In this document: piece after piece, positions 7,564 through 63,957 of the stretch
Position numbering within the stretch: the first letter of the stretch is position 1
How the letters are laid out: every line of letters starts with the position of its first letter
Source: Eledone cirrhosa
Taxonomy: Eukaryota
DNA: 64,000 nt
Direction of reading: 5' to 3'
NCBI GenBank assembly: GCA_964016885.1
Contig: OZ024746.1
Span: 29,822,001 to 29,886,000, forward strand
The notes under the pieces: model-generated
The model's database searches: none
Told to the model about the DNA's origin: nothing
The model's input: only the letters and a program-made list of their open reading frames with translations
Made by a program: the position numbers and the translations under genes

Positions 7564-7698
7564 ACCCGGACCCACTAGAAAGGTGTTAAATCTAGCTTCA
7601 TGGGTTTCTGTAAATCCTTAGACTGTACTCTATCAGCTCACATATAAATATAAAAGCCTACTAGAGTAAGTGGAACGGAGTTTACGTTATCAACGAGT
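7564..7698 (-). ncRNA. Type I hammerhead ribozyme, U3/A8 core variant, extended stems II and III (copy 1)
   Basis: Minus: ACTCG|TTGATAA|C-GTAAACTCC..TACTCTA..TAGAGTA..GGATTTAC-A|GAAA|CCCA..CTAGA..TCTAG-TGG|GTC^|CGGGT. Confidence 0.8.
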
Positions 7699-8178
7699 TT
7701 TTTCCTGGCGGCAGAGGAGTCAACTAGCGGTGAAAAACGCACATGGCATTAGACAAGGGAGATGACCCCTATATCCGCGAAAACAATTCGAGTGAATGTG
7801 GAAATACACATATCGAATTAGAGTGCTCAATAGACATGTTAAAATAAAACAAAAGCTATTCATCACTCAATAGAATCGACAAAAAATGAGCAATAAAATT
7901 AACTGGTGGATAGCTATGTCCAGAGCTAAATATATTAGAAAGATCGAGTATCGAAAAATCGGCGCACGAGTTCACGATAAACGAAATTCGATATGAGCGG
8001 CAGAGGGCTCAATAATTCAGATGAATCAGAGCTATAACTATCGTTAAAATACCGTCACATATAGAACAAGTCTACAATCAACCATACGATTTAAAATCGA
8101 TAAAGGAAGATTCGGGCCAAACAGATAAAAAATATCAATAAAACAATACGTCAATAATTTAAATGAATGTAAAATCAT

Positions 8179-8313
8179 ACCCGGACCCACTAGAAAGGTG
8201 TTAAATCTAGCTTCATGGGTTTCTGTAAATCCTTAGACTGTACTCTATCAGCTCACATATAAATATAAAAGCCTACTAGAGTAAGTGGAACGGAGTTTAC
8301 GTTATCAACGAGT
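8179..8313 (-). ncRNA. Type I hammerhead ribozyme, U3/A8 variant (copy 2)
   Basis: Same as 7564-7698, shifted by 615. Confidence 0.8.
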
Positions 8314-8793
8314 TTTTTCCTGGCGGCAGAGGAGTCAACTAGCGGTGAAAAACGCACATGGCATTAGACAAGGGAGATGACCCCTATATCCGCGAAAACA
8401 ATTCGAGTGAATGTGGAAATACACATATCGAATTAGAGTGCTCAATAGACATGTTAAAATAAAACAAAAGCTATTCATCACTCAATAGAATCGACAAAAA
8501 ATGAGCAATAAAATTAACTGGTGGATAGCTATGTCCAGAGCTAAATATATTAGAAAGATCGAGTATCGAAAAATCGGCGCACGAGTTCACGATAAACGAA
8601 ATTCGATATGAGCGGCAGAGGGCTCAATAATTCAGATGAATCAGAGCTATAACTATCGTTAAAATACCGTCACATATAGAACAAGTCTACAATCAACCAT
8701 ACGATTTAAAATCGATAAAGGAAGATTCGGGCCAAACAGATAAAAAATATCAATAAAACAATACGTCAATAATTTAAATGAATGTAAAATCAT

Positions 8794-8928
8794 ACCCGGA
8801 CCCACTAGAAAGGTGTTAAATCTAGCTTCATGGGTTTCTGTAAATCCTTAGACTGTACTCTATCAGCTCACATATAAATATAAAAGCCTACTAGAGTAAG
8901 TGGAACGGAGTTTACGTTATCAACGAGT
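8794..8928 (-). ncRNA. Type I hammerhead ribozyme, U3/A8 variant (copy 3)
   Basis: Same as 7564-7698, shifted by 1230. Confidence 0.8.
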
Positions 8929-9060
8929 TTTTTCCTGGCGGCAGAGGAGTCAACTAGCGGTGAAAAACGCACATGGCATTAGACAAGGGAGATGACCCCT
9001 ATATCCGCGAAAACAATTCGAGTGAATGTGGAAATACACATATCGAATTAGAGTGCTCAA

Positions 9061-9657
9061 TATATATATATATATATATATATGTATATGTGTATACATA
9101 TATATATGTATATACATATATATATATATGTATATACATATATATGTATATACATATATATATATATGTATATACATATATATATGTATATATATATATA
9201 TATATATATATATATATATATATATATATATATATATATATATATATATATATATATATATATATATATATATATATATATGTATATGATATGTATATAT
9301 ATATATATATATACATATCATATATACATATCATTTTCGAAAATATCCTTACATATATATATATATATATATATATATATATATGTATATGATATGTATA
9401 TATATATATATATATACATATCATATATACATATCATTTTCGAAAATATCCTTACATATATATATATATATATATATATATATATATGTATATGATATTT
9501 ATATATATATATATATATATATATATATATATATACATATCATATATACATATCATTTTCGAAAATATCCTTACATATATATATATATATATATATATAT
9601 ATATATATATATATATATATATATATATATATATATATATATATATATATATATATA
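9061..9657. repeat. Compound (TA)n microsatellite with a triplicated ~40-bp insert
   Basis: catatcatatatacatatcattttcgaaaatatccttaca occurs at ~9313, ~9416 and ~9535 inside TA runs. Confidence 0.9.
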
Positions 9658-9732
9658 TTGTTTTCATATATATTACTCAATAACGAGTACTCATCTCTCT
9701 AAGCTGTCAACCATATACGGATATATGTATAT

Positions 9733-60298: not shown

Positions 60299-60549
60299 CA
60301 ATATGGATAGGTAAATATTTAAATTGTATTTTAATTTATTTTAAAAGTATATTTAAAGTTTACTTGTTCAGCTCATCTCAATTTTATATACATATATATA
60401 TCTATCTTTAATCTTTATTATTCTTTGTATGTGTACGTTTATATTTACATGTAAGTAATTAATGACATTGTATACCTTTTGTGTCCATTTTTGATATTAT
60501 ATTTTGTTATATACACCTTGTGTACTTCTTGTTCTTTTATGTTGTGTTG

Positions 60550-60901
60550 TACGAACATGACAACCGCTGCAGGGTAGCCAACTGCCCCATCAACGACACA
60601 GACCCATGCCACCAGGCTTACGTCGTATACAGTCTAGAGTGCGACAAAAGCAGCAACTTCTACGTAGGTAGCACCACCAGACCACTCAACATAAGAATTA
60701 AAAAAACACCTCAATATTAACGCTTCCTCATTTAAGAAACACCTAGTTAAATGCAAAAACACCGACAAAACCATAACAGTTAGGATAGAAACTAAGGAAA
60801 GAAACCTCGGCAATCTTAGAATTAAGGAAGCACTAATTATAGACAAAACACAACCACCAATCAATAATAGACTAGAACTCAACACCCAATTTATAACTTG
60901 A
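60550..60901 (+). pseudogene. PLE GIY-YIG endonuclease fragment (frameshifted)
   Basis: CRVANCPINDTDPC..VVYSLECDKSSNFYVGSTTRPLNIRIK(E)H..NLRIKEALIIDKTQPPINNRLE. Confidence 0.8.
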
Positions 60902-62010
60902 TAGAGCATCTAGCCACATATTTACACCCCCCCCCTCCCACACACACACACACACACACGCACGCACACACACACACACACTCACACACAGACACGCTTA
61001 CACCTCCACTTATTCTCTCTCACACACACAAAGACCAGTTCTAACACGAGATAACATCTATCCCCCACATTTAGGTATAGACATATCTTCTCACACTCAC
61101 ACACACACACACACACACACATACTCACACCTTCACGCATTCTCCCACACACTTAAACAGGCATGTACAAAAAGTAAAACCATTTTAAAGGGAGACTACT
61201 CTTTATCCACCTAACCTTAACTCTTTGATATTAGAGCTAGAGCAGATACTCTATACCATTTCCTGTCAGCATGACTTGGAAAGCTATTTAGAACACTGGT
61301 TTAACCGCTTTACTTCCATCCGAAGAAGAGATATTATCTCAAAAATTAAGGACATTTAAATAAATCTAAGGTAAAAGACTAATTGTCAACAATATCTTTT
61401 GCATTTGTATTCTTTATTCTATGTCCATACCTGCATGGTTTTGGCTTTATTATACATATACAAACGTTTATACCTCATTACACAATGTTTCAAGTGAACT
61501 ATAACTTCCTCCATATATATATATATATATATATATATATATATATATATATATATATATATATATATATGTATGTATGTATATATATATATATATATAT
61601 ATATATATATATATATATATATATATATATATATATATATATATATATATATATATATATATATATATATATATATATCGCGTTTCTGAATTTCTCTCAT
61701 GACCCTCCCAAAGTATAACAATATATATATATATATATATATGTGTGTGTATATATATGTGTATATATATATATATATGTATATATATATATATATATAT
61801 ATATATATATATATATATATATATATATATATATATATATATATATATATATATAGAGAGAGAGAGAGAGAGAGAGAGAGAGAGAGAGAGAGAGATATAG
61901 ATAGATAGATAGATATTATAGATAACGAGTAATCAGTGATGTATCAAAATACAATTTATTAACATACTACATATGTTTTGATGCATCACTGATTCCTCGT
62001 TTTCTATAAA

Positions 62011-62187
62011 AATTGTTTCTACGTTTGGCACAAGGCCAGCAATCACTCAGTGCATTACTGGTACTTTATTTTATCGACCCCGTAAGGATGAACGGCAAAG
62101 TTAACCTAGACAGGATTTGAACTCAGAATGGCAAGGGGCGTAACTCTATGCGTCAAAGCATGCCGTCCGACCCTCTACCGATACAGC
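62011..62187 (-). mobile_element. SINE (major family)
   Basis: Reverse complement of the consensus. Confidence 0.9.
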
Positions 62188-62289
62188 CTCTGCTCTGCGC
62201 CAGCATCGATTACTCAAACGGTATAACGACTACGGACGCATTTATTGCAGCCATACAACAACTATATATATATATATATATACATACAC

Positions 62290-63243
62290 TCATCTCCCCA
62301 CATCACCACCTTCTCTCTCTACCTTTCACACCTACCCATTCTCTCCCCTGTCCACCGCACCTCCGCACACAGAGACACACAGTCCACAACACATACAGAC
62401 CCTTTCTTCAGCTGTCATCCTCCTCTACTGCTATCTCTTCACCCTGCCTTGACCCTCTGACTACTTCCTGTTGCGCGCGTACTCCACATCTCTCCACTTC
62501 TGCACCACCTCAAATGGATTTCACACCACCGGCCATCGTTCCAGCTATCCACTCTATAACATGAGAAATATCCAACATCTTATCGCACACTCCAGAACTA
62601 CTTTAGGAACATACCCACGAACAAGCATTCACATTTTTTTTCGAACCACGCCACCTACATCCACACCACGTATAAACACAAACACAGACGTGGGTATCCC
62701 CACATACACACACCCAGCCTCCGGAATCCAGATCCCCCACCCCTCTGACCTCTCTCCATCCACACGCACGCACACACCGACTTACACCCCACCTCATGTA
62801 CACACTGGTTCCTCTTTACCTGAACATGGAACCTCGTTCCTCCCCCAACTCTCACATTCACATACACACACACACACACATACGTACACACATACACAAA
62901 CACCACCTTCAGCCCTCCCCGCTCGGACCCCCCACCTCCCTCTCCCAAATACACCCGCCACCACCCCTACACGCCTAACACCCTTCCACCACATGTTTAT
63001 TTTTATGTTTATTTTTATTTTTATTTGTACTTCTAAAATCGTTTTTCCTCCCTTTTCTCCCCCCCTTTTTGAAATGTTTTTCGCTCACTCCCCCACACAC
63101 CTTCGGAACTCTCTTCCTACCCACTTTTCTTCTGATGAAGTGTTTATGCCCGAAACGTCCCCACCACACTCTCAAAAGCGTGAACCTAATAAACTAATAT
63201 TTGTACTGCCTCTCTGTTTTTGTTCCTGTCTAAGATTCAACTA
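62290..63243 (+). mobile_element. Degenerate PLE 3' region/pLTR with a minimal HHR at 63132-63159
   Basis: CTGATGA-AGTGTTTATGCCC-GAAA-CGTC followed by aataaa; homologous to 52030-52270. Confidence 0.6.
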
Positions 63244-63262
63244 TATATATATATATATATAT

Positions 63263-63957
63263 ATGAAAACATGGAGAAAAAGACGATTATTAGGAAGAAA
63301 CATTTTTTTTTCCCTTTTTATTTATTTCTCTCTTTTTTTGTGGGTTAGAAAATGATTAAAACGAAATGTTTTACTTTGTGTGAAGTGCTAAGGTATTAGT
63401 TGATTTATTTATTAATTAACAATGGCATTTATTTATTTATTTATATATTTAGTAATTGTTTATTACCGGTTTCAGCATTTTTATGCATTATCAAATGATA
63501 ATAATATGTATTGCTATATTAATACATTTTGATCTGCTTATCTTCAACAAGTATGCCTGTAAATAACATTATTTTTTCTTCAGATTGACTTATTATGCTC
63601 CACATTACGTTCCTTTTGTTCTTTATTCTTTTTTCTTTTCACTTGATAAACATTGTTTGTAAATAACATTATTCTTTCTGTACCATTTCTTTAACATGTC
63701 CAACACCACCATTCTACACCAATAAATATTATTATCATTTGATAATGCATAAAAATGCTGAAACCCGTAATAGACAATTATTAAATATATAAATAAATAA
63801 ATAAATAAATGCCATTGTTAATTAATAAATAAATAAACTAATACCTTAACACTTCACACAAAGTAAAATATTTCTTTTTAATCAGTTTCTAACCCAGAAA
63901 AAAGAGAGAAAGAAATAAAAAGGGAAAAAAATATTTTTTTCTTCCTAGTAATCGTAA
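63263..63957. mobile_element. pLTR-like element with an inverted 5' copy and two U3/A8 minimal HHRs, in (TA)n
   Basis: 63284-63506 is inverted at 63727-63955; HHRs at ~63460-63500 (-, intact ACCGGTA) and ~63733-63775 (+). Confidence 0.8.

What the first reader, a model, noticed from the sequence alone, without database searches (positions are those of the whole stretch)
7687..63745. Compensated U3-A8 catalytic core shared by three unrelated HHR families
TTGATAA or TTGAAAA replaces CTGANGA in the 615-bp family (7687-7693 and its two copies), the Naiad-like pLTR family (43534-43540; 51608-51614) and the 47123/63263 family (47323-47329, 63488-63494, 63739-63745). Established: C3 and G8 form a Watson-Crick pair in the active hammerhead. 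A double change to U3-A8 keeps that pair, so its recurrence argues for selected activity rather than decay. Standard CTGANGA searches would miss these motifs.
Basis: partly seen in the sequence, partly recalled or inferred. Interest (0 to 1): 0.8.

Follow-up and report, generated by a model that had tools for sequence, protein, structure and literature searches.

The report
Hammerhead ribozymes with swapped core pair
Several jumping-gene families in this animal genome carry hammerhead-shaped RNA motifs, predicted to self-cleave, whose core C-G pair is swapped for U-A, a variant already in print; the fresh point is that sister subfamilies with the pair only half-swapped (U·G or C·A) have also spread, so the pair is likely favoured but not strictly required.

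Summary
All eight named cores are present, each inside a type I hammerhead layout. U3-A8 is the inherited state of each family (about 800 to 4,500 matches per family in the 3.0-Gb genome), not decay. In 1.46 Mb surveyed, 62 hits were C3-G8, 29 U3-A8 and 9 other (about 10 expected by chance).

The variant is published (Perreault 2011; about 1,300 copies in Schistosoma Penelope-like elements, Cervera 2014), and this scan met it in two other genomes.

Corrections: the "Naiad-like" family is a Hydra-clade Penelope-like element. The 47/63-kb family has Neptune/Nematis-type domains. The 615-bp unit is a very young tandem retrozyme. At least two independent origins are supported.

Compensation is not strict. 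A Hydra subfamily with C3·A8 has about 350 copies. U3·G8 cores amplified in two retrozyme lineages, one as near-identical arrays at 12 or more loci. Both one-step intermediates between C-G and U-A therefore spread; I found no report of this in the library searched. No cleavage or expression was shown.

The parts
7320..9060 (-). Tandem array of about 2.8 identical 615-bp units (retrozyme-like), set in (TA)n
   Evidence: 100% identical copies; top 40 genome hits all 100% identical, arrays on many contigs
7564..7698 (-). Type I hammerhead, core UUGAUAA at 7693-7687, long stems II and III, predicted cut after GUC (C17 = 7569)
   Evidence: covariation in relatives
8179..8313 (-). Second copy of the 615-bp hammerhead
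8794..8928 (-). Third copy of the 615-bp hammerhead
43358..45400 (-). 5'-truncated, decayed Hydra-clade Penelope-like element: RT 3' part, CxCx5C linker, GIY-YIG, 3' UTR/pLTR
   Evidence: Translation; family copies; clade definition
43450..43545 (-). Type I hammerhead in the pLTR, core UUGAAAA at 43540-43534; this copy has a private mismatch in stem III
47122..47553 (+). 3' end of a C-terminal-endonuclease Penelope-like element with Neptune/Nematis-type linker
47316..47357 (+). Minimal hammerhead, core UUGAUAA, 4-bp stem II, palindromic CCGG stem III, GUA site; predicted to need a dimer
51525..51619 (-). Hammerhead of an older relative of the 43534 family, core UUGAUAA at 51614-51608; decayed copy
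   Evidence: ends counted from the sequence
51827..51922 (+). Inverted second copy of the 51608 family with A3·A8 core (a private change)
63460..63501 (-). Minimal hammerhead, inverted copy of the 47/63-kb family
63732..63773 (+). Minimal hammerhead of the 47/63-kb family; stem III reads CCCG instead of the family's CCGG

Best explanation
These are type I hammerhead motifs of Penelope-like retroelements and of a retrozyme, in which U3-A8 is the inherited family state and likely keeps the core pair needed for self-cleavage, while subfamilies with U3·G8 or C3·A8 have also spread, so the pair is likely favoured rather than essential. Shown: the motifs, their carriers, family-wide core states and the amplified one-step subfamilies. 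From published work: C3-G8 is a core pair and U3-A8 constructs cleave in vitro. Inferred: in the two autonomous families the ribozyme cuts pLTR transcripts after GUC/GUA, the minimal 47/63-kb motif as a dimer through its CCGG palindrome. Inferred for the 615-bp unit: multimers are cut to monomers, circularised, and copied in trans by a (TA)n-targeting Penelope-like RT that primes at a fixed A/U-rich site about 250 nt past the cut and runs round the circle, giving tandem arrays. The switch between C-G and U-A likely passes through the tolerated single-step cores.
For: Survey of 1,464,000 bases: 62 C3-G8, 29 U3-A8, 9 other of 100 hits; 3 shuffles gave 30 hits with 1 C3-G8 and 0 U3-A8; 18 versus 8 families. 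47/63-kb family: 9 of 799 not U3, none C3-G8. 43534 superfamily: 40 of 4,484 not A8, position 7 takes all four bases. Seven diverged retrozyme units give a full hammerhead consensus with 7 of 28 pairs changed on both sides and only position 7 varying in the core. Arrays share one 3' junction at (TA)n. U3-A8 carriers are not one clade (p-AU 6.6e-5). Literature: PMC3088659, PMC4209133, PMC7229834.
Against: No cleavage or transcript was shown. 339 of 4,484 cores in the 43534 superfamily are not U3, mostly one C3·A8 subfamily. 231 cores in the retrozyme superfamily are not A8, 98 of the first 100 being U3·G8. Five of 6 window copies folded are not hammerheads at minimum energy. The consensus fold of 17 copies of the 43534 superfamily slips stem I into the core. 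Published minimal PLE hammerheads cleave poorly in vitro, and Naiads thrive without canonical ones. Counts of copies reflect descent from few masters, not independent events.
Confidence: 0.7

Rival explanations
1. The ribozymes are passengers: cleavage is no longer needed for mobility, and U3-A8 is a frozen state inherited from a few masters in an A+T-rich genome.
For: Mismatch-core subfamilies amplified. Both changes, C to T and G to A, go towards A+T. Craig 2021 suggests hammerheads may parasitise PLEs. Weak folds for the 47/63-kb motif.
Against: Chance decay would leave U3·G8 or C3·A8 families more often than double changes, yet the survey found 8 U3-A8 families, 1 C3·A8 singleton and no U3·G8. 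Core and stems are kept with covariation across 25-35% divergence while position 7 and loops drift.
Confidence: 0.15
2. Strict compensation: only Watson-Crick 3-8 pairs are active, and the mismatch subfamilies spread without cleavage (read-through multimers, help in trans from intact copies, or DNA-level copying).
For: Paired cores dominate. In the coding-region tree a younger U3-A8 clade nests among C3·A8 copies, which would be a return to pairing (94/90; C3·A8 monophyly rejected at p-AU 0.032 on 4 rows).
Against: U3·G8 615-bp units form long arrays at 12 loci on 6 contigs among the first 100 matches, and 6 of 6 fetched end at the same (TA)n junction as the U3-A8 arrays, as expected if made by the same route. 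U3·G8 arose twice.
Confidence: 0.12
3. The matches are chance heptamers in A+T-rich repeats, not ribozymes.
For: TTGANAA is not enriched in the window. No hammerhead family is among the 150 of 199 Rfam matches listed.
Against: Structure-based hits far exceed shuffles; the motifs sit where PLE hammerheads are known to sit; stems covary.
Confidence: 0.03

Closest known systems
U3-A8 minimal hammerheads of Cercyon Penelope-like elements, Schistosoma mansoni (Cervera & De la Pena 2014, PMC4209133)
   Same: U3-A8 covariation in pLTR hammerheads; about 1,300 hits beside about 2,000 C3-G8 ones, a share close to the 29 to 62 here; extra base after A9; palindromic stem III (47/63-kb family).
   Different: Here the carriers are Hydra-clade and Neptune/Nematis-type elements and a retrozyme. 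Two families have long stems II (about 55-80 nt) and III and can fold as monomers. Amplified C3·A8 and U3·G8 subfamilies are not mentioned in the two of four parts of the paper that I read.
Natural U3-A8 core variants (Perreault et al. 2011, PMC3088659)
   Same: First natural report of the C3-G8 to U3-A8 covariation; states it is active in vitro, citing Przybilski & Hammann 2007; also reports U10.1-U11.1 as tolerated, as in the 47/63-kb motif.
   Different: A few examples there; here whole mobile families.
Non-LTR retrozymes of animals (Cervera & De la Pena 2020, PMC7229834; Li et al. bioRxiv 10.64898/2026.07.22.740005)
   Same: Non-coding tandem units, one type I hammerhead per unit, low G+C, dispersed arrays, PLE mobilisation proposed.
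   Different: Unit of 615 bp against the usual 150-450 bp; U3-A8 or U3·G8 core; long stems; no parent pLTR found; RNA not shown.
Hydra clade of Penelope-like elements (Craig et al. 2021, PMC8557442)
   Same: C-terminal GIY-YIG without CCHH, CxCx5C linker, DKT, RW-type N-terminal motif, (TA)n targets.
   Different: The paper reports canonical hammerheads in Hydra; this family has U3-A8 and C3·A8 cores. The RWK motif reads RWR here.

Membership tests
Type I hammerhead ribozyme | Core boxes C3-U-G-A-N-G8-A and G-A-A-A plus NUH site in type I order | tested here: met
   Met with U3-A8 in place of C3-G8; sites GUC or GUA
Type I hammerhead ribozyme | Three helices around the core, with covariation | tested here: met
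   615-bp family and intact 43534-family copies
Type I hammerhead ribozyme | Stable stem I and stem II in the 47/63-kb motif | tested here: inconclusive
   4-bp stem II closed by U·U, bulged A-U-rich stem I, -3.6 kcal/mol
Type I hammerhead ribozyme | Self-cleavage at C17/A17 | not testable with these tools
   Needs in vitro transcription
Naiad Penelope-like elements (43534/51608 family) | GIY-YIG N-terminal to the RT | tested here: not met
   RT precedes GIY-YIG; the ORF start in L131 and L140 has no endonuclease
Naiad Penelope-like elements (43534/51608 family) | DKA motif and CCHH finger | tested here: not met
Hydra Penelope-like elements (43534 family) | C-terminal EN without CCHH, CxCx5C linker, DKT, RWK-type motif, (TA)n targets | tested here: met
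   CNCPDRSTC linker, DKT, RWR, TA flanks. The 51608 relative was linked by pLTR similarity and a 60-69% identical coding match in one locus
Hydra Penelope-like elements (43534 family) | Placement in an RT tree with reference Hydra sequences | not tested
   No reference set was held
Neptune/Nematis Penelope-like elements (47/63-kb family) | C-terminal EN with CX2-5CxxC linker and CCHH | tested here: met
   CGRPNCGIC linker and C..C between GIY and YIG
Neptune/Nematis Penelope-like elements (47/63-kb family) | RT phylogeny separating Neptune from Nematis | not tested
   No reference set was held
Non-LTR retrozyme (615-bp unit) | Non-coding tandem units, one type I hammerhead each, dispersed arrays | tested here: met
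   no contiguous PLE ORF in 20 loci of the related ~600-bp family
Non-LTR retrozyme (615-bp unit) | Unit of about 150-450 bp | tested here: not met
   615 bp; the same paper allows 150 to over 1000 nt for such circles
Non-LTR retrozyme (615-bp unit) | Expressed as linear and circular RNA | tested here: inconclusive
   No RNA holder listed

The most novel reading that the evidence does not exclude
This genome holds the whole mutational path between the two hammerhead core pairs as successful mobile families. U3·G8 wobble cores, arisen twice in a retrozyme lineage that is still spreading, cleave well enough to make circles, and a C3·A8 Hydra subfamily later returned to U3-A8. That makes a natural series for measuring how much ribozyme activity Penelope-like elements and retrozymes need.
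Probability: 0.35. Interest if true: 0.6.

Novelty: new member of a known kind. Interest (0 to 1): 0.36.

Why it matters
The U3-A8 core itself is known. It still matters for annotation: about a third of descriptor hits here (29 of 91 paired-core hits) would be lost by a CUGANGA search, and long stems hide more. What hammerheads do in Penelope-like elements is stated as unclear in PMC8557442. Sister retrozyme subfamilies that differ at 12-13 of 615 bases, one U3-A8 and one U3·G8, both recently mobile, give a ready-made test of whether cleavage rate limits mobility and of how a core base pair can be exchanged in evolution.

Tried and rejected
Rfam scan: microsatellite artefacts only among the 150 of 199 rows listed; no hammerhead family shown, even for the window's canonical cores, so it is not a specific test. 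Pfam found nothing for the GIY-YIG ORF. Generic repeat finding was swamped by (TA)n. Heptamer counting is uninformative.

I first took the 615-bp unit for a derivative of the Hydra element in L036. Rejected: the similar unit there is a separate insertion between TA runs, and none of 20 loci of that family had a contiguous PLE ORF. I first labelled the endonucleases of L060, L262 and L039 with nearby hammerheads; microsatellite runs lie between, so these links are unverified, though L060 and L262 were still labelled. The row named H46_CG is the L273/L100 endonuclease family, whose own downstream motif in L100 has C3-G8.

Expression: no RNA holder listed among 7 runs of 5 studies. In one search position 7 varied (two alternative bases) and no change was listed at positions 3, 8, GAAA or the cut site (40 of 42 rows shown), but with 42 variable places in 615 this is weak, and run kinds are unknown. 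A control to tell whether those runs are DNA or RNA was not obtained, so that stays open.

Primary kinetics papers were not held. The supplements of PMC3088659 gave no hit for four terms; figures and supplements of PMC4209133 and PMC8557442 were not seen and may list further core variants.
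Full report
OBSERVATION. All six named coordinates read as stated, and the other two 615-bp copies are at 8302 and 8917. The heptamer alone is not enriched: 77 observed against 76.1 expected. Each core lies in a type I hammerhead layout. The 615-bp motif folds as the three-way junction at minimum energy. The other 5 window copies folded do not; the 43534 and 51608 copies have private stem III mismatches, and 3 intact relatives of 43534 do fold as hammerheads. The 47/63-kb motif is the weakest (-3.6 kcal/mol with the core forced open).

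CARRIERS. The window lies in a 3.0-Gb genome; I did not determine the organism. (1) The 43534 core is in the 3' pLTR of a 5'-truncated element at 43358-45400 (minus strand) that reads RT, CxCx5C linker, GIY-YIG. Family copies add DKT and RWR near the ORF start, with no N-terminal endonuclease. These are the Hydra features of Craig 2021 (PMC8557442, section 11 and passages), not Naiad. The 51608 family is an older relative (74% over 205 nt; best genome hits 73-88%). (2) The 47/63-kb core lies about 420 nt after the stop of an RT plus C-terminal GIY-YIG ORF with a CX4CxxC linker and CCHH, which is Neptune/Nematis-type. (3) The 615-bp unit has no long ORF. Its top 40 of 1,243 candidate hits are all 100% identical and lie in tandem arrays on many contigs. 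Arrays end at one fixed A/U-rich site about 250 nt past the predicted cut, followed by (TA)n. It belongs to a wider family of 590-630-bp units, 66-78% alike (2,351 pattern matches, control 2). No parent element was found.

IS U3-A8 INHERITED AND SELECTED? In the 47/63-kb family, 98 of the first 100 of 799 matches are U3-A8 and 9 of 799 are not U3, none of them C3-G8. In the 43534 superfamily, 40 of 4,484 are not A8, and 2 of those 40 are C3-G8 (one search left out G at position 3). Position 7 takes all four bases across subfamilies. A descriptor with free positions 3 and 8, run on 141 stretches (the window, 20 neighbours, 120 spaced picks; 1,464,000 bases), gave 100 hits: 62 C3-G8, 29 U3-A8, 9 other (1 C3·A8, 0 U3·G8). 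Three shuffles gave 30 hits in all, 1 C3-G8 and 0 U3-A8. By family the split is 18 to 8, plus 9 singletons. Outside the window, C3-G8 occurs in 23 and U3-A8 in 15 of 140 stretches. Tandem arrays inflate copy counts, and the descriptor missed known copies (51608; a C3·A8 copy in L038). Seven diverged retrozyme units give a full hammerhead consensus, 7 of 28 pairs with changes on both sides and only position 7 varying in the core. For 17 copies of the 43534/51608 group the core letters other than 3 and 7 are invariant, but the predicted consensus slips stem I into the core. So selection on the motif is supported between families; copy counts within a family reflect descent.

HOW MANY ORIGINS? 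In an endonuclease tree of 26 rows, Hydra-type and other rows split at 98/97, and U3-A8 carriers are rejected as one clade (p-AU 6.6e-5; the 8 rows included 1 C3·A8 row and 1 unverified label). With 10 checked labels the tree needs 3 changes, but the Hydra part is unresolved. C3-G8 carriers occur on both sides (L098; L100, L087, L089). At least two switches, or a swap of pLTRs between elements, are needed. The retrozyme's origin is open.

EVIDENCE AGAINST STRICT COMPENSATION. 339 of 4,484 cores in the 43534 superfamily are not U3; by hand count of the first 100, 90 are C3·A8, 1 C3-G8 and 9 have A or G. One subfamily has 368 matches, 95 of the first 100 with C3·A8, with stems and GUC mostly intact. 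The outgroup and sister subfamilies are U3-A8, so C3·A8 is derived. A younger U3-A8 clade nests among C3·A8 copies in a coding-region tree of 17 rows (94/90; 12 further rows dropped for short coverage; monophyly of the 4 C3·A8 rows rejected at p-AU 0.032). A pLTR tree of 62 rows shows two such nested clades, but with truncated flanks. A return to pairing is therefore plausible, not settled. In the retrozyme superfamily 231 cores are not A8 (control 1). All of the first 100 have U3 and 98 have G8: 69 units at 12 loci on 6 contigs are a 615-bp subfamily, and 22 units at 6 loci a 627-bp one (hand count). The patterns differ, so 231 of 2,351 is approximate. Three U3·G8 units compared differ from the window's unit at 12-13 of 615 bases, two of them by the same 12. 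All 6 fetched loci of that subfamily end at the same junction as the U3-A8 arrays, both U3·G8 types fold as hammerheads, and the tree puts them on separate branches. Both have C at position 7.

MECHANISM. Shown: motifs, carriers, states, array ends. From print: C3-G8 pairing, natural U3-A8 covariation and its activity in vitro (Perreault 2011, PMC3088659, passages; the primary paper it cites was not held); dimer action and low activity of minimal PLE hammerheads (PMC4209133, parts 1-2 of 4); the retrozyme cycle of cleavage, ligation and copying in trans (PMC7229834, passages and discussion); PLE origin of retrozymes (bioRxiv 10.64898/2026.07.22.740005, abstract and passages). Inferred: cleavage here, circle formation, priming at the fixed site, and passage between C-G and U-A through tolerated single-step cores. 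That a U·G wobble disturbs the pair less than C·A is general knowledge, not tested here.

NOVELTY. U3-A8 is known, including about 1,300 hits in S. mansoni PLEs, and two earlier notes of this scan report it in other genomes. For amplified U3·G8 or C3·A8 cores, searches found no report: of the 3 papers, the one read is a chance string in a sequence listing and the other two were seen as listings on unrelated topics; PMC7151607 matched only through the consensus string. The library lacks most subscription papers, and key kinetics papers were not held, so this is weak evidence of absence. A scan look-up on this point returned nothing.

VERDICT. Observation confirmed, interpretation partly supported. 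New members of a known variant, with one testable side result. Interest 0.36.

Noticed in passing
window 18157-18163, 18719-18725, 34960-34966 (-); 32702-32708 (+); 46483-46489 (-): Canonical C3-G8 type I hammerheads of three other repeat families; several share an unpaired base or mismatch at the foot of stem II.
   Followed up: partly
window 63132-63160 (+): A further CTGATGA...GAAAC-GTC motif that did not pass the descriptor.
   Followed up: no
window 23036-25672 (+): Uninterrupted 878-aa frame with RT (PF00078), a zinc knuckle and what looks like a C-terminal restriction-like endonuclease motif (that label is recalled, not from a call): a non-LTR retrotransposon.
   Followed up: partly
window 45921-46109, 49042-49213, 52637-52792: Short head-to-head palindromes made of 43534-family 3' ends cut off inside stem II, so they keep GAAA and the cut site but lack the first core box.
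   Followed up: no
L326-L330, L333 (615 bp) and L331-L332 (627 bp): Two retrozyme subfamilies with a UUGACGA (U3·G8) core in young tandem arrays, up to 26 units.
   Followed up: yes
L171-L200: Hydra subfamily of about 350 copies with a CUGAGAA (C3·A8) core and mostly intact stems.
   Followed up: yes
L086:4045-9164, L059, L060: Other tandem hammerhead arrays with C3-G8 cores and units of about 310 and 465 bp; L086 holds a 615-bp U3-A8 array next to inverted 310-bp arrays.
   Followed up: no
L075, L078, L279, L098, L109, L262, L039, L269: Further U3-A8 families not in the window; the L078/L279 one follows a Hydra-type endonuclease and has a short stem II.
   Followed up: partly
run X2 on window 7320-7934: Very high summed contig depth (about 9,000 to 260,000) for the 615-bp unit in a run of unknown kind; could be RNA or a high copy number, not resolved.
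   Followed up: partly
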